From Podarcis muralis (lineage: Eukaryota): DNA of 64,000 nt. The position numbers were made by a program. Positions 17,801 through 44,700 of this stretch are shown here, one piece after another. The stretch covers positions 11,594,001-11,658,000 of the forward strand of contig NC_135667.1 of assembly GCF_964188315.1 (NCBI RefSeq), given 5' to 3'. The first letter of the stretch is position 1, and every line of letters starts with the position of its first letter.

Positions 17801-20800
17801 AGCCTGTCTCCCCACCCCCTTACTACAGCTGTATATGGAGCACTGAAGAATTTATAATCATGTCAGACTTGCTCGTTGATTTTTTTTCCCACCCTGATGT
17901 TTTGGCCAGGAGAATTGATTATGGTAATTTTAATAATTACAGGGGAGAAAATCACTTGTGCAGTGCTTTTGGAGTCTATGGCGCATCAGCAGTAGGGGAT
18001 GACAATTTGTCACATCGTATTTGTCACATTACAGAATTAAAGATTAGAATTGGACCTGCAAGGTCATCTAGTCCACTCCGTGCCAATCCTTGACATCCAC
18101 AAGTAATAACAATAATAAAACCCACTGATGGGCAGGCATCAATCCACTTCCTAAAAATCCCTTCCTAAGAATATTTTTAGAATTGAACCCATCCAATCCT
18201 TTCCCCGCTTGCCTAATTTGTTACAGCTGGGGGCTGCTACACTCCTCCACCTATGTAAGATGTATTGGACATTGTTTGCTACCACACTAATGGCATACTG
18301 GAAACAATTCTGGAGAGAGTTCTGACATTATCAGGAGGTAGGGACACTGGTTAATAGTGTCTAACCACTTTAGAAACAGCACATCTGATCTGAGGCAATC
18401 TGACATGGTTGAGAAGCTCCCTGCCACCAGTCTTTCACTCAGATAAGAAATGTAATTCAGCAGACTGAAAGGCTTGTCCTACTAATGTAAATCAAGAACA
18501 TTTAATATTGTTCCTCTGTATATTGTTGCACTATGGATACCCTCATCCTTGATAATAATGGTCAATGGTAGGGTGATAGGAGTTCTAGTCCAACAATTTC
18601 TGGAGCGTCTTAGATTGGCTATTCCTGGTGTAAAGGAAGTTGTGGTATGTAGAGAAAGGTCTCATGCTTTGTGTGATCTCTTTCAGAGCTACTTCAGATC
18701 TTAGAGCCTTCTGTGCCTGGAGCACTCCCTAAAGCCAAACCAGTCATTTAATCCATCCTGTGTCTACTCAGGTGTGAGATTCAAGAAGTGTAGAGGTACT
18801 AGTTCACCCTATGTGCAGATGATTTTGCAGCTCTCCAGAATTTTTCCTGTGCCTAGACTGATCTGCTTCAAATGTCTTATTGAAAGTGATGTTGGATCTT
18901 ATCCACAGTTTCATTCCTTCACACAGTCCCAATTCAAATAAAAGACATATGTTCCTATGTGGAATAGCAAGAACATAAATGATAAGATGAATCCTTCTAT
19001 TATTTATATTTTTTCAACTTCCTGACTAGGAAAGGTGCAATGAGACTGTGAATTGTCAGCAAGGCCAAGTAGCCTAAGACCCAACAAAAACTTCTGTCAT
19101 TTATATCTTTCTCCGTATCAATTGCTCTCTGTTGTTTAACTCAGGCCTCATCACAATAATGTAGCATTTAGGGGAAAAGATGCAAGCCAGTAATCCAGCA
19201 CTGGAAGCCAAGATGGAGAAGATCTCCACAGCCACCATGTATTTTCCTCTGGTGCTCAAGTATGTGGGAATAAAGGAGAGCCAAACACTGCAAAAGACCA
19301 GCATGCTGAAGGTGATGAACTTGGCTTCGTTGAAAGTGTCAGGCAACTTCCTGGCTAGGAAGGCCACCGTGAAGCTGACAATGGCCAGGAAACCCATATA
19401 ACCCAAGACACAGTAGAACATGAAGACTGACCCTTCATTACATAGAAATATAATTCCTTCCCTCATTGAGTGCATGTCCACATCGGGGAATGGAGAAGAG
19501 ATTGTCAGCCAGAGTGCACATATCACTACTTGAGTTTTAGAGCAGCAAAGGACTATGGAATAAGCCAGTCTTTTCCCCACCCATTTCCTGATAGAAGATC
19601 CTGGCTTAGTAGCCATGAATGCCAAAACCACTGATATAGTTTTGGCCAAGATGCTAGAGAGGGCCACAGAGAAGATGATGCCAAAAGCGGTTTGTCGGAG
19701 AAGGCAGGTCACCTTATTAGGTTTTCCAATGAACAACAAAGAACAGAGGAAACACAAGAGGAGGGAGATGAGGAGAATGTAGGTGAGGCTTCTGTTGTTG
19801 GCTTTGACTATGGCTGTATCCCGATGCTTAATGAAGATGCCCAGCACCAGAGCTGTGATCAGGGACAATAAAAGTGCAGTGGAAGTTGAAACAATGGCCA
19901 GCACATCATCAAAAGCTAAGAAGTTTGGTATCTTAGGAATACATAGATCCTGGCCTTTGTTTGGGTATAGATCCTTTGCACAACTTGCACAATTTTCTAA
20001 ATCTGAAAAGAAGTTAACAAAATATTGAACCAGAATAGTTCCGAATATTAAAATCTGTAGCAGCAGCAGTCCACCAAACATTATATTTCATCATGCAAAT
20101 TTTGACACCTTTCTGCCCAAGATGCCTACAAATCCTGCACATAGTCTGGAACTTTCAACAGAAGCAGCATGTGTGTCCTAGATGTACAAGCATTCCCTCA
20201 TAACCTGCTTTTAAATACGATAGGTTCTTTATTCCACATATTAACGAGGAATTACAGTTTGCATAATGAGTGCCATCCCACCAAATCATACTCAAAGTAG
20301 TCCCACTGAAATAAATAGACTTAAGTAATTTGAGGTTTTCCACTATGAAGTGGTTTATAAATTTTATGAAATAAATACATAAATTGATTTCAGTGGGTCG
20401 ATTCTGAGTATTACTATTGCCCAATAAGTTTTAATACTAGAAAATCCTGATCCCTTATTTTTTAATCCTGAATAATAACGGCATTTTTACTAGCCCTCTT
20501 GTTAATGCCATAAAATCTTTATGCGATGCTCATAGTGATTCTTATGCAATGACTGGTTTCTGTTTGTAATATTAATCCCTACATGTTGTACTAGTTTGGC
20601 TGATCTGTGCTGCATAAGTTTATTTTTTTATATAGATTCCCAATTTATCTCTACTTAGACTTTCATAACTTCTCATTCTTGTTTCATGGCAGATCACAAG
20701 CTGAAAGGAAGGACACAGCCAGCAACAGGGTCTACCATAACTTTTGTCTGGGTGCTCATCCCTTGTCAATATGTATCGAGTCTTGCCCATGTTTTGCATA

Positions 20801-41700: not shown

Positions 41701-44700
41701 ACTGTGGATAAGATCCAATATCACTTTCATAAGACATTTGTAGCAGATCAGTCTAGGCAATGGAAAAATTCTGGAGAGCTTCAAAATCATCTACACATAG
41801 GGTGAACTAGTACACCCTAATTACATTTCTTATCTGAGTTAAAGACTGGTGACAGGGAGCTTCTTAACCATGTCAGATTGCCTCAGATCAGATGTGTTGT
41901 TTCTAAAGTGATAAGACAATATTATCCAGTGTCCCTACCTCCTAATAACATTAGAACTCTGTCCAGAATTGTTTCCAGTAAGCAGTTAGTATGATAGCAA
42001 ACAATGTCCAATACATCTTATGTAGGTTGAAGGGTGTAACAGCCCCCAGTTCTAGCAAATTAGGCAAGTGGAAAGGATGGGGTGGGTTCAACTCTAAAAA
42101 TACTCTTAGGAATATCTCTTTCTAGCTATTTTTTCATTGTTAGCTCAGTACCTTCCTATCCAGGACCTAGTGTGGGCTGGTTTGATGGCTGGAGAACTTT
42201 GCCCCCCTACTAATATTAATTGAGAACCAAAGCTAGTTTCAGTTTTTGCTGTCATAAATCAATGAGCTAGCAATGGGGAAAAAAAGCTAGAAAGAGATTG
42301 TGCTGATTAGCCACTCCATCCATCACCCTCCTGTCTTGTGTAACCCTCCGTTGGTCCTTCTTTTCACCCACTTCACATAGACTGAGCACAAAATGGTTCT
42401 GAGGCCTGATGCAATATGATGGGTAAGCAGGGATATTCTTTATTACACAGATATGCAGTAATTTTCACAGCTTTGCTTTCAAGATGCAACTTTAAAGGGC
42501 ACAATTTTAATATATCATCTTCCTGGGCTGTCGGTGGAGCTGGGTGGACATAGATCACTGGATATTGTTTTTAAATTATCATACAGCGTATATTTTTCCA
42601 GAAATTTGTATGAGCTGTCCAGAAGATAACCATCCAAACAAGGGCTATGATCACTGTGTTCAAAGATACCAGTTTTCCTAGCTTTTGATGACACTTTGGC
42701 CATCATTTCATTTCCCCCCCCCCTGCATTTCTACAGGCTCTGGTCACAGCTCTGGTGTTGGGCATCTTCTTTAAGCACCGGGACACTGCCATAGTCAAAG
42801 CCAACAACAGAAGCCTCACCTACATTCTCCTCAGCTCCCTTCTGTTGTGTTTCCTCTGCTCTTTGTTGTTCATCAGAATGCCTAATGAGGCAACTTGCCT
42901 TCTCCGACAAACAAGTTCTGACACCATATTCTCTGTAGCCAACAACAACAACAACAACAACAATTTTATTTATATCCCAACCTCCCCAGCCAAAGCCAGG
43001 CTCAGAGTAGCTAACAACAGTAAAAATAGCACAGTTTACATAGAATCACAATCAGTTAATTGAAATATTTTCTAAAATCAATTCAGAATCAAATTAATGG
43101 CAATCATTAGGTTAGTGTTCTATGAGGATTATAGAAGGAGAGAGGGGGTCAGACTGTGCCTTGGCCAAAGGCCTGGTGGAACAGCTATATCTTGCAGGCC
43201 CTGCGGAAAGATGTCAAGTCCCGCAGGGCCCTAGTCCCTTCTGACAGATCAGGGCCACGGCCGAAAAAGTCCTGGCTCTGGTTGAGGCCAGCCTAACTTC
43301 CCTGTGGCCCAGGATCTCCAAGATGTTTTTATTTGAAGACCATAAGGTCCTCCGTGGGACTTACCAGGAGAGGCGGTCCTGTAGGTATGAGGGTCCTAGG
43401 CCATATCGGGCTTTAAGGTTAAAACCAGCACCTTAAACCTGATCCTGTACTCCACCAGGAGCCAGTGCAGCTGGTATAGCACCGGGTGAATGTGATCCTA
43501 TGGCAAGGACCTCGTAAGGAGTCTCGCCGCGGCATTCTGCACCCGCTGGAGTTTCTGGGTCAGTCTCAAGGGCAGCCCCACGTAGAGTGAGTTACAATAA
43601 TCAAGCCTGGAGGTGACTGTTGTGTGGATCACAGTGGCTAGGTCAGGGCGAGAGAGGTAAGGAGCCAACTGCTTAGCTTGGCGGAGATGAAAAAATGCAT
43701 CATGGCCAAAACTATCTCTGTGGTTTTGGCATTCATGGCTACTGTTATGTACTGAAGTTCTCACCCTGGGCCAGCAGGAGGATATTGTAGATAGTTATGC
43801 AAATGAAGGATTGAAAGTGATGTTCAGTGATTGGATAGTTTGTATGCAAATGAAGGTTCGAAAGTGACGTTCAGTGATTAGATAGTTTTAGAAAATGGCA
43901 ACAGTTACATTGTTCTGGAGCTCTATATAAGCATGTTATTAGAGTTTTATTTCCCAGACGTCCTGTGTGTTGACATTGTTTGGATCTTTTCTATCACTGT
44001 TCTAAAGATCCAGAGAAAAACAGGAGTAGTTAATATTACATAGGTCAGATGGTGTGACACTTTCAATGGTTGCCTATTAGACTAGCCAAAAAAAAGAAAA
44101 GAAAAAAGCTTTCTGTTGTTTTGAACTGTTTTAAATTTTCTTTAATATTGTGTTTTAATATTAATGTTGTAGTTACAGATAGGTAGCCGTGTTGGTCTGC
44201 CATAGTCAAAACAAAAAAATTTCCTTCCAGTAGCACCTTAAAGACCAACTAAGTTAGTTCTTGGTATGAGCTTTCGTGTGCATGCACACTTGTATCTGAA
44301 GAAGTGTGCATGCACACGAAAGCTCATACCAAGAACTAACTTAGTTGGTCTTTAAGGTGCTACTGGAAGGAATTTTTTTTGTTTTGAATATTAATGTTGT
44401 GTTTCATTTGTTGTAACCTGCCCTGGGACCTTAGGGTAAGCACAGGTAATAGACAACAACAACAACAATAATCACAACAACAACAACAACAACAACAACA
44501 TTTCATTCTTTAAAAAATAAATATTGAGGTTCTTTCACAGAGTGAGCTTTGTTTGTTCACCAGCAAGATTTTTGCAGAAGAATTTCAAATCAGATAACCA
44601 GCATTCAATAATTTTGCAGCTGTCAATTTCCCACTTTGACAGGGGAGGTTTGAGACCTGTTCCTACTCCATCACAGAAGTGAATGTCTTCCCTGCAATTA

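What the first reader, a model, noticed from the sequence alone, without database searches (positions are those of the whole stretch)
18800..41810. ~10-11 kb head-to-head inverted duplication of a whole V2R gene (C/D)
C and D are mirror images, including introns and upstream DNA, with start codons ~4.4 kb apart (28675 and 33110). This marks the strand switch of the cluster: A-C are minus, D-E are plus. Such a quasi-palindrome can promote arm-to-arm conversion and flip-flop inversion of the spacer, and it places two similar promoters back to back.
Basis: seen in the sequence. Interest (0 to 1): 0.65.

Follow-up and report, generated by a model that had tools for sequence, protein, structure and literature searches.

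The report
Old inverted V2R gene pair, lizard
Two copies of a lizard pheromone-receptor gene lie head to head as a roughly 10-kb mirror-image duplication that is real, older than it looks, partly kept alike by copy-to-copy correction, and has one copy broken by a single-base deletion; this is an ordinary way for such gene families to grow.

Summary
Window 18796-29862 and 31955-41813 are reverse complements: 8,835 aligned nt, 95.9% identical, covering exons, introns, 3' flank and 1.19 kb upstream. Weaker homology runs on to 18162/42112. The organism is the wall lizard Podarcis muralis, not human.

Gene C (-) is an intact six-exon V2R. Gene D (+) has a 1-bp deletion in exon 3 as assembled.

About 1.9 kb of the 2,092-bp spacer is a truncated LINE with target-site duplications and a nested SINE. 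The original spacer was therefore only about 184 bp.

P. raffonei has two similar paralogues. Of 16 informative amino-acid sites, 6 pair C and D with separate raffonei genes, 10 group the paralogues by species, and 0 show the third pattern. The duplication therefore probably predates that species split and was later patchily homogenised by gene conversion. This fits the uneven arm identity of 88.5-99%.

The cluster's strand switch is older than this event. Spacer flip-flop could not be tested. An assembly artefact is unlikely. This is a new member of a known kind, of modest interest.

The parts
18162..29862 (-). Left arm, carrying gene C. The high-identity core is 18796-29862. The outermost 18162-18457 is 88.5% identical to 42112-41819. 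The segment 18458-18790 is missing from the right arm.
   Evidence: In one search, 18527-18724 also matches B's 3' flank at 5212-5412, so the 333 nt were lost from the right arm rather than gained by the left.
31955..42112 (+). Right arm, carrying gene D. The high-identity core is 31955-41813.
19101..28675 (-). Gene C, a V2R. Exons: 28675-28467, 25891-25600, 25200-24319, 23948-23721, 21959-21833 and 20002-19101 (stop codon included). All introns are GT..AG, every exon is open in frame, and the exon lengths sum to 879 codons.
   Evidence: The NCBI model P0035 (691 aa) matches exons 3-6 at 99.6-100%.
33110..41508 (+). Gene D, a V2R. Exons: 33110-33318, 36263-36554, 36953-37833, 38204-38431, 39537-39663 and 40607-41508. 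The splice sites are the same as in C. A 1-bp deletion near 37033 shifts the frame of exon 3. No other lesion was found.
29863..31753 (-). 5'-truncated LINE. Its AATAAA signal and short A-tail abut the left arm at 29863. The ORF pieces at 30196-31308 are 46-55% identical to residues 818-1044 of the LINE ORF2 at 57440-60961.
   Evidence: The target-site duplication is 29846-29862 / 31754-31770 (14 nt, 93%, family D8).
31260..31611 (-). SINE-like element nested in the LINE, flanked by a 12-nt direct repeat. Other copies lie at 35740-36093, 45780-46126 and 53718-54076. The strand is inferred from a B-box-like motif and a consensus recalled from memory.
   Evidence: ARAGORN found no tRNA-like head.
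31771..31954 (.). The likely original spacer, 184 nt. Its first 62 nt recur at 42202-42263.
42042..42263 (+). Patchwork junction just outside the right arm. 42042-42199 is a 93% copy of the D intron-5 segment 39807-39966. 42194-42263 matches 31763-31832 at 68 of 70 nt. The two pieces overlap by 6 nt.
42263..42940 (+). Relic of an older plus-strand V2R: the 3' part of intron 5 plus about 340 nt of exon 6, with stops and frameshifts. Its 5' end is cut exactly at the patchwork junction.
38760..39074 (+). Insertion found only in the right arm: the 3' fragment of a CR1-like LINE, 97.5% identical to 56518-56835. The left arm has a clean empty site.
   Evidence: The CR1 name is recalled from the peptide tail, not tested.
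35740..36093 (-). SINE-like insertion found only in the right arm, in intron 1 of D, with a 9-11-nt target-site duplication.
22708..23682 (.). 975 nt found only in the left arm, in intron 4 of C next to an (AAT)n run. It contains repeats also seen at 51767-52091 and 48988-49112.
20554..21688 (.). Segment of intron 5 that does not align between the arms: 1,135 nt on the left against 235 nt (39808-40042) on the right. It includes a repeat copy at 21453-21678.
28978..29170 (-). Promoter-like block upstream of C, conserved in all five paralogues. The TATA-like motif is at 29060-29075.
32646..32838 (+). The same promoter-like block upstream of D. The TATA-like motif is at 32741-32756.

Best explanation
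This is a genuine inverted segmental duplication (a small, diverged palindrome) of one complete V2R gene unit in the Podarcis muralis V2R cluster.

Shown:
- The arms are about 10-11.7 kb long and 95.9% identical, and cover 3' flank, all six exons, all introns and 1.19 kb upstream.
- C is intact. D has one 1-bp deletion in exon 3.
- The present spacer is mostly a later LINE insertion with a nested SINE, so the arms were once about 184 nt apart.
- Each arm has since gained or lost different repeats.

Inferred, fairly strong: the duplication predates the split of P. muralis and P. raffonei, and stretches of the two copies were later homogenised by gene conversion in both lineages. The 96% identity is therefore a mosaic of older (about 88-94%) and younger (about 97-99%) tracts, not a clock.

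Inferred, weaker:
- D is the derived copy. It was made by a fold-back or template-switch repair event at a pre-existing head-to-head boundary, and that event removed the 5' part of a neighbouring plus-strand V2R and left a patchwork junction.
- D was constrained for most of its history (dN/dS 0.36) and was disabled recently, unless the deletion is an assembly error.

The structure is a product of birth-and-death evolution in a chemoreceptor family. It is not a device with a function of its own.
For: Structure.

Gene identity: ANF_receptor, NCD3G and 7tm_3 map to the expected exons of both copies. The best hits are named vomeronasal type-2 receptor, and the P. muralis protein P0035 is 100% identical to C exon 6.

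Gene models and the frameshift. Summed over the six exons, Sd is 42.8 and Nd is 56.2, giving dS 0.078, dN 0.028 and a ratio of 0.36.

Spacer: the LINE target-site duplication and A-tail, LINE homology and the nested SINE repeat.

Uneven identity: the upstream 1.19 kb has 23 mismatches in 1,155 nt (98.0%) against 134 in 2,499 nt (94.6%) for intron 1. Fisher's test for upstream against all other non-coding sequence gives P = 4e-6. The dispersion test over 44 windows gives P = 5e-6. The outermost 296 nt are 88.5% identical.

Cross-species evidence: P. raffonei has two 720-aa paralogues with consecutive accessions on one contig, 687 of 720 residues identical. Over 720 aligned residues (exons 2, 3, 4 and 6, each aligned separately), 6 sites support (C,P0121|D,P0050), 10 support (C,D|P0121,P0050) and 0 support the third pattern. 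Three more sites have C = P0121 only. Zootoca states show shared-derived residues in both paralogues of each species. Orthology-type sites lie where local C-D identity averages 94.3%. Species-type sites lie where it averages 97.0% (one-sided Mann-Whitney P = 0.002).

Origin: the patchwork junction and the truncated relic. B is closer than E to C/D.
Against: - The orientation and position of the P. raffonei pair could not be checked, because no eukaryotic genome collection was available.
- The cross-species inference rests on 16 informative amino-acid sites taken from automated, partial gene models. The raffonei models lack exon 1 and exon 5.
- The sites are spatially clustered, so the Mann-Whitney P value overstates independence.
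- The exon-6 tree (built before P0121 was known) leaves C, D and P0050 as an unresolved three-way fork.
- The 98% identity of the inner 1.19 kb could reflect selection on two promoters rather than conversion.
- The longest perfect run (185 nt) is not by itself unusual (permutation P = 0.149).
- The origin model is weak. The inner junction shows at most 1 nt of microhomology. The 70-nt repeat carries the sequence variant of the LINE's right-hand target-site copy, so its timing relative to the duplication is unresolved.
- The frameshift lies in a GGCC context and may be an assembly error.
Confidence: 0.72

Rival explanations
1. A young inverted duplication specific to P. muralis that has simply decayed to 96% identity, with no gene conversion. 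On this view the P. raffonei pair arose independently.
For: C and D are closer to each other than either is to P0050 in every exon compared: exon 6 is 96.3% against 94.1/93.8%, and exon 3 is 93.7% against 91.9/91.4%. Ten of the 16 informative sites group the paralogues by species. The exon-6 tree does not separate the alternatives.
Against: Six sites, plus 3 partial ones, pair C with P0121 and D with P0050, and none shows the third pattern. Under independent duplications these would need 6-9 parallel changes. Divergence along the arms is significantly uneven and follows the two kinds of site.
Confidence: 0.15
2. An assembly artefact: two haplotypes, or a fold-back chimeric read, joined in inverted orientation.
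For: Inverted repeats of this size are hard to assemble. One 153-N gap exists in the window.
Against: The arms differ at 361 of 8,835 aligned sites. They also differ by an insertion with a clean empty site, a SINE with a target-site duplication, a 975-nt segment, a 333-nt deletion and a frameshift. The only N run (52096-52248) lies in an intron of gene E, outside the structure. Each arm joins different unique flanks. A second species has two paralogues at a similar distance.
Confidence: 0.03
3. A functional regulatory palindrome. On this view the two back-to-back promoters and an invertible spacer act as a switch or a shared control region for choosing between C and D.
For: Both arms keep the promoter-like block conserved in all five paralogues. 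The innermost 1.19 kb is the best-conserved non-coding part of the arms, at 98.0%.
Against: About 1.9 kb of the 2,092-nt spacer is a dead LINE plus a SINE, and the remaining 184 nt match nothing but a 62-nt copy. D is frameshifted. No exchange between the arms was detected in the coding interval (0 of 16 sites). The same promoter block occurs in the tandem paralogues, which have no palindrome.
Confidence: 0.05

Closest known systems
Large palindromes of mammalian sex chromosomes (primate Y and X, mouse X) with arm-to-arm gene conversion
   Same: Inverted arms of about 10 kb or more, each carrying a gene copy, around a short spacer. There are signs of conversion between the arms, and the gene pair is probably shared by two species. 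The class is described as >10 kb and >99% identical in the abstract of 10.1101/800185 and in the abstracts of PMC8981503 and PMC8327919 (search listing).
   Different: Arm identity here is 95.9%, not above 99%. Conversion is patchy rather than pervasive, one copy is broken, and the gene is a chemoreceptor in a tandem array. The chromosome is unknown.
Mouse Mup class B head-to-head gene/pseudogene pairs, formed by inverted duplication
   Same: A chemosignalling gene family in which an inverted duplication produced a divergent head-to-head pair with one coding copy and one pseudogene (passages of PMC2533699).
   Different: In the mouse the pair was then amplified in tandem as a 45-kb unit, and its breakpoints are associated with ERVs. 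Here there is a single pair, with a LINE at the centre and no sign of amplification of the pair within the window.
Fold-back inverted duplications with a short single-copy spacer (human constitutional rearrangements)
   Same: Inverted and non-inverted copies are separated by a short single-copy spacer (184 nt before the LINE arrived), and the distal side lies next to missing sequence, the 5' part of the relic V2R (abstract of PMC3907307).
   Different: The human cases are megabase-sized, terminal, and have short inverted sequences at the spacer boundary. None was found here (at most 1 nt), and the event here is interstitial with templated patches.
Tandem V2R clusters of squamates
   Same: Species-specific and lineage-specific V2R duplication within clusters has been reported for the Komodo dragon and other squamates (passages of 10.1101/551978). 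The window holds five V2R genes and one relic.
   Different: Those reports describe clustering and gene trees. The passages read do not describe an inverted whole-gene duplication at nucleotide resolution.

Membership tests
V2R (vomeronasal type-2 receptor, family C GPCR) | Domain order: ANF_receptor ligand-binding region, NCD3G cysteine-rich linker, 7tm_3 | tested here: met
   In one search, exons 2 and 3 match ANF_receptor, exon 5 matches NCD3G and exon 6 matches 7tm_3 (E = 3e-83 and 5e-84) in both C and D.
V2R (vomeronasal type-2 receptor, family C GPCR) | Closest relatives are proteins named V2R, rather than CaSR or T1R | tested here: met
   In one search, the hits at 83-100% identity are all named vomeronasal type-2 receptor 26-like, from Podarcis, Zootoca and Lacerta. 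These are names given by automated annotation.
V2R (vomeronasal type-2 receptor, family C GPCR) | Six coding exons with a long exon 3 and the whole 7TM region in the last exon (layout recalled from memory) | tested here: met
   In some searches, the exons are 209, 292, 882, 228, 127 and 902 nt, and all introns are GT..AG in both C and D.
V2R (vomeronasal type-2 receptor, family C GPCR) | Open reading frame through all exons, i.e. a working gene | tested here: inconclusive
   C is open in all six exons. D has a 1-bp deletion in exon 3 followed by stops. Expression was not testable.
Large palindrome maintained by arm-to-arm conversion | Inverted arms of more than about 10 kb around a spacer | tested here: met
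   The arms are 11,067-11,701 nt and 9,859-10,158 nt. The spacer is 2,092 nt now and was about 184 nt originally.
Large palindrome maintained by arm-to-arm conversion | Arm-to-arm identity above 99% | tested here: not met
   Overall identity is 95.91%. Of the 29 windows of 300 nt, two reach 99.0% and none exceeds it.
Large palindrome maintained by arm-to-arm conversion | Evidence of gene conversion between the arms | tested here: inconclusive
   Indirect support comes from the mosaic site patterns (6/10/0) and from uneven identity. No DNA from a second species or population was available.
Fold-back inverted duplication | Single-copy spacer between the inverted and non-inverted copies | tested here: met
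   The spacer is 184 nt (31771-31954) once the LINE bounded by target-site duplications is removed.
Fold-back inverted duplication | Short inverted sequence at the boundary between spacer and duplication | tested here: not met
   Searches show no inverted match at the junction beyond the arm itself, and at most 1 nt of overlap.
Fold-back inverted duplication | Loss of sequence next to the duplication | tested here: inconclusive
   The relic V2R at 42263-42940 lacks exons 1-5 and is cut at the patchwork junction. The ancestral state is unknown.
Assembly artefact (haplotig or fold-back misjoin) | Near-identical arms, differences at allelic level, and gaps or contig ends at the joins | tested here: not met
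   The arms show 4.1% mismatches and several repeat insertions or deletions found in one arm only. There is no N between or at the arms.

The most novel reading that the evidence does not exclude
The palindrome arose with a spacer of only about 184 nt, through a fold-back or template-switch repair that destroyed the 5' part of a neighbouring V2R. It has persisted since before two Podarcis species split, through patchy arm-to-arm conversion. It was then stabilised when a LINE integrated, to the nucleotide, at the junction between the arm (hairpin stem) and the spacer (loop). That would be a natural footprint of retrotransposition aimed at a DNA secondary structure.
Probability: 0.15. Interest if true: 0.5.

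Novelty: new member of a known kind. Interest (0 to 1): 0.3.

Why it matters
The finding shows, at nucleotide resolution, how a squamate V2R cluster gains a gene by inverted rather than tandem duplication. It also shows that apparent paralogue age (96% identity) can mislead, because conversion has reset parts of the pair. Anyone counting or dating lacertid V2Rs, or calling orthologues between Podarcis species, should treat C and D (and P0121 and P0050) as a partly concerted pair. The locus is also a compact, datable test case for palindrome stability, with a short original spacer, a later LINE and divergent arms. None of this changes current understanding of the family.

Tried and rejected
- A single global MAFFT alignment of the two arms smeared non-homologous inserts into many false gaps. 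It was replaced by block-wise alignment.
- Pfam gave no hit for the three spacer ORFs or for two intron ORFs (5 of 13 queries without a family). The spacer ORFs were identified instead by comparison with the LINE ORF2 elsewhere in the window.
- ARAGORN found 0 tRNA-like genes, so the SINE class of the 350-nt repeat is unconfirmed.
- The longest perfect run between the arms (185 nt) is not significant alone (P = 0.149). The second to fifth longest runs are (P = 0.016 or less).
- The search for an inverted microhomology at the inner junction found none.
- The idea that the 333-nt difference at 18458-18790 is an insertion in the left arm was rejected, because B's flank also has it.
- The idea that the spacer is original unique DNA was rejected.
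- The staggered-break inversion model was rejected, because the 70-nt repeat is direct, not inverted.
- The literature search for 'vomeronasal receptor' plus 'inverted duplication' returned 1 paper, on Mup genes. The search for 'Podarcis muralis' plus 'vomeronasal' returned 25 papers, and none of the 15 listed titles concerns receptor gene organisation.
- The collection genome contigs was not used because it holds only bacteria and archaea.
- No absolute age is given, because no calibrated rate was at hand.

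
Full report
Scope and rules. The window is lizard DNA. Exon 6 of gene C is 100% identical to a Podarcis muralis protein named vomeronasal type-2 receptor 26-like (P0035), so nothing here is human. The single N run (52096-52248) lies in an intron of gene E and was left as it is. All protein searches and comparisons were made exon by exon. The step of joining exons into a spliced model and searching with it was left out. No eukaryotic genome collection was available, so orthologous loci in other lizards stayed unchecked. Supplements of papers were not consulted.

1. A seed-and-extend scan and a minus-strand self-BLAST find five collinear inverted blocks linking 18796-29862 to 41813-31955. 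Block-wise global alignment gives 8,835 aligned nt with 361 mismatches (95.91% identity). Exons are 96.43% identical and non-coding DNA 95.69% (Jukes-Cantor distance 0.044). The tandem paralogues resemble C/D only in exons and a short upstream block, at 67-86%, so intron-level identity is special to this pair. The start codons are at 28675 and 33110. The homology continues outward to 18162/42112 at 88.5%, across a 333-nt segment missing from the right arm. That segment is also present in B's 3' flank, so it was deleted from the right arm.

2. The genes. tblastn with three full-length lacertid V2Rs lays out the cluster:
- A (-), cut by the window start
- B (-)
- C (-)
- D (+)
- a degraded exon-6 relic (+) at 42601-42940, with intron homology from 42263
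- E (+)

Pfam places ANF_receptor, NCD3G and 7tm_3 on the expected exons of C and D. Both copies have the same six exons with GT..AG introns. C is open throughout, and its exon lengths sum to 879 codons. D lacks one C in a GGCC context near 37033 in exon 3, and stops follow. Read in C's frame, D has no other lesion. Summed over exons, dS is 0.078 and dN is 0.028 (ratio 0.36). The 7TM exon is the most constrained and exon 2 the least. The automated NCBI model for C starts inside exon 3. No protein matching D appeared among the 120 listed hits, and P0035's cluster has one member.

3. The spacer and the insertions.
- The 2,092 nt between the arms begin with the A-tail and AATAAA signal of a minus-strand LINE. 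Its ORF pieces (30196-31308) are 46-55% identical to residues 818-1044 of a 1,173-aa RVT_1 ORF at 57440-60961.
- The last 14-17 nt of the left arm are repeated at 31754-31770, forming a target-site duplication.
- A 352-nt SINE-like element with its own 12-nt duplication is nested inside the LINE.
- Removing these leaves 184 nt (31771-31954) as the original spacer.
- The right arm alone has a CR1-like 3' fragment (38760-39074) with a clean empty site in the left arm and a 97.5% copy at 56518-56835. It also has a SINE-like insertion (35740-36093) with a target-site duplication.
- The left arm alone has 975 nt in intron 4, and intron 5 differs in content between the arms.
- These differences, the absence of any N, the 4.1% mismatches and the different unique flanks make a haplotype or fold-back misassembly very unlikely.

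4. Age and conversion. Identity is uneven along the arms:

| Region | Identity |
|---|---|
| Outermost 296 nt | 88.5% |
| Intron 1 (134 mismatches in 2,499 nt) | 94.6% |
| Innermost 1.19 kb (23 mismatches in 1,155 nt) | 98.0% |
| Two 300-nt windows: start of exon 6; exon 4 to intron 3 | 99.0% |

Fisher's test for the innermost 1.19 kb against all other non-coding sequence gives P = 4e-6, and the dispersion test over 44 windows gives P = 5e-6.

P. raffonei has two 720-aa paralogues with consecutive accessions on one 56-Mb contig, 687 of 720 residues identical. The 720 residues were compared exon by exon:
- 6 sites pair C with P0121 and D with P0050.
- 10 sites pair C with D and P0121 with P0050.
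- 0 sites show the third pattern.
- 3 further sites have C = P0121 only.

Two Zootoca proteins polarise the ten species-type sites where they cover them. Some are shared-derived in the muralis pair and others in the raffonei pair. Orthology-type sites sit where local C-D identity is 92.6-95.6%. Species-type sites sit mostly where it is 96.6-99.0% (Mann-Whitney P = 0.002; the sites are clustered). The simplest reading is a duplication older than the species split, followed by patchy conversion in both lineages.

There are caveats. Only protein models from automated annotation were used. There are only 16 informative sites. The orientation of the raffonei pair is unknown. The exon-6 tree made before P0121 was found is an unresolved three-way fork. 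D has 22 lineage-specific residues against 11 for C, which hints at relaxed constraint on D.

5. Origin (inference). E and the relic are older plus-strand genes, and B is the nearest relative of C/D. The head-to-head boundary therefore predates this event, and D looks like the derived copy. Just outside the right arm, 42042-42199 copies a D intron-5 segment at 93%. It is fused through a 6-nt overlap to a 68-of-70 copy of 31763-31832 from the palindrome centre, and this abuts the truncated relic at 42263. Such patchwork fits template-switch or fold-back repair, as described for human inverted duplications with a short spacer (abstract of PMC3907307). The fit is incomplete. No inverted microhomology was found at the inner junction. 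The 70-nt patch carries the variant of the LINE's right-hand target-site copy, so the order of events is open.

- Back-to-back promoters: all five genes share a block of about 450 nt, roughly 200-500 nt upstream of the ATG. A TATA-like motif within it was found at 4 of the 5 genes with the exact pattern, against 0 expected in shuffles. E differs from the pattern by one base. The C and D motifs are at 29060-29075 and 32741-32756. They are 3,665 nt apart now and were about 1,757 nt apart before the LINE.
- Flip-flop inversion is untestable on one assembly. The absence of third-pattern sites argues only against an exchange between the arms in the interval from exon 6 to exon 2 since the species split.

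7. Comparison and verdict. The structure works like the conversion-prone palindromes of mammalian sex chromosomes (abstracts listed) but fails their defining identity of more than 99%. Its closest analogue in a chemosignalling family is the mouse Mup class B head-to-head gene/pseudogene pair made by inverted duplication (passages). V2R expansion by local duplication in squamates is known (passages). One full-text search for an inverted duplication of vomeronasal receptor genes found only the Mup paper. The finding is real and now well described, but it is a new member of a known kind. Interest: 0.3.

Noticed in passing
window 29846-29867 and 31754-31770: The spacer LINE is inserted, to the nucleotide, at the inner end of the left arm, and its target-site duplication is the arm's last 14-17 nt. 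A random insertion would land within 2 nt of that boundary only about once in 10,000 tries over the 22-kb structure. One possibility is nicking at the stem-loop junction of a hairpin at a time when the spacer was only about 184 nt.
   Followed up: partly
window 42263-42940: Relic of a sixth V2R on the plus strand: the 3' part of intron 5 plus about 340 nt of exon 6, 71-77% identical to D and E, with stops and frameshifts. It lacks exons 1-5 and is cut exactly where the patchwork junction ends.
   Followed up: partly
window 57440-60961 (-) and 62195-63782 (+): An open 1,173-aa LINE ORF2 (RVT_1, E = 4e-43). Next to it, in the opposite orientation, are a 316-aa ORF in the position of an ORF1 (no Pfam family) and the start of an endonuclease domain (Exo_endo_phos). 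These may be recently active elements.
   Followed up: partly
window 56070-56835 and 38760-39077: A CR1-like ORF2 tail (231-aa ORF, no Pfam hit) whose last 318 nt are 97.5% identical to the insertion found only in the right arm. The repeat family was therefore active after the duplication.
   Followed up: partly
window 31260-31611, 35740-36093, 45780-46126, 53718-54076: Four copies (88-95% identical) of a SINE-like element of about 350 nt. Two of them are bounded by target-site duplications. ARAGORN saw no tRNA-like head.
   Followed up: partly
window 3577-3896, 17762-17955, 28978-29170, 32646-32838, 44766-44883: A promoter-like block conserved upstream of all five V2R genes, although their introns are otherwise unalignable. 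It contains a TATA-like motif and several invariant runs.
   Followed up: partly
window 25160-25175 (C exon 3, residues 9-13): C has four replaced residues within five positions (I-N-D-G-T). D, both P. raffonei paralogues and one Zootoca protein share A-I-D-Q-I there. This is a clustered multi-nucleotide change specific to C, 15 codons upstream of the site where D is frameshifted.
   Followed up: no
P0035, P0050, P0121: The automated gene models of this V2R clade are partial. The P. muralis model starts at a Met inside exon 3, and the P. raffonei models start inside exon 2 and skip the NCD3G exon. Repertoire counts based on such models may misjudge which genes are intact.
   Followed up: no
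window 52096-52248: A run of 153 N in intron 5 of gene E, next to a repeat that also occurs in the left arm (23328-23655 matches 51767-52091 at 80%). It was left unfilled.
   Followed up: no
window 2038-2093, 23655-23705, 47762-47806, 55650-55691: Perfect trinucleotide (AAT/TAT)n runs of 14-19 units. Three of the four lie in V2R introns (A, C and E); the fourth (55650-55691) lies downstream of E. The one in C starts about 15 nt after the exon-4 donor and borders the 975-nt segment found only in the left arm.
   Followed up: no
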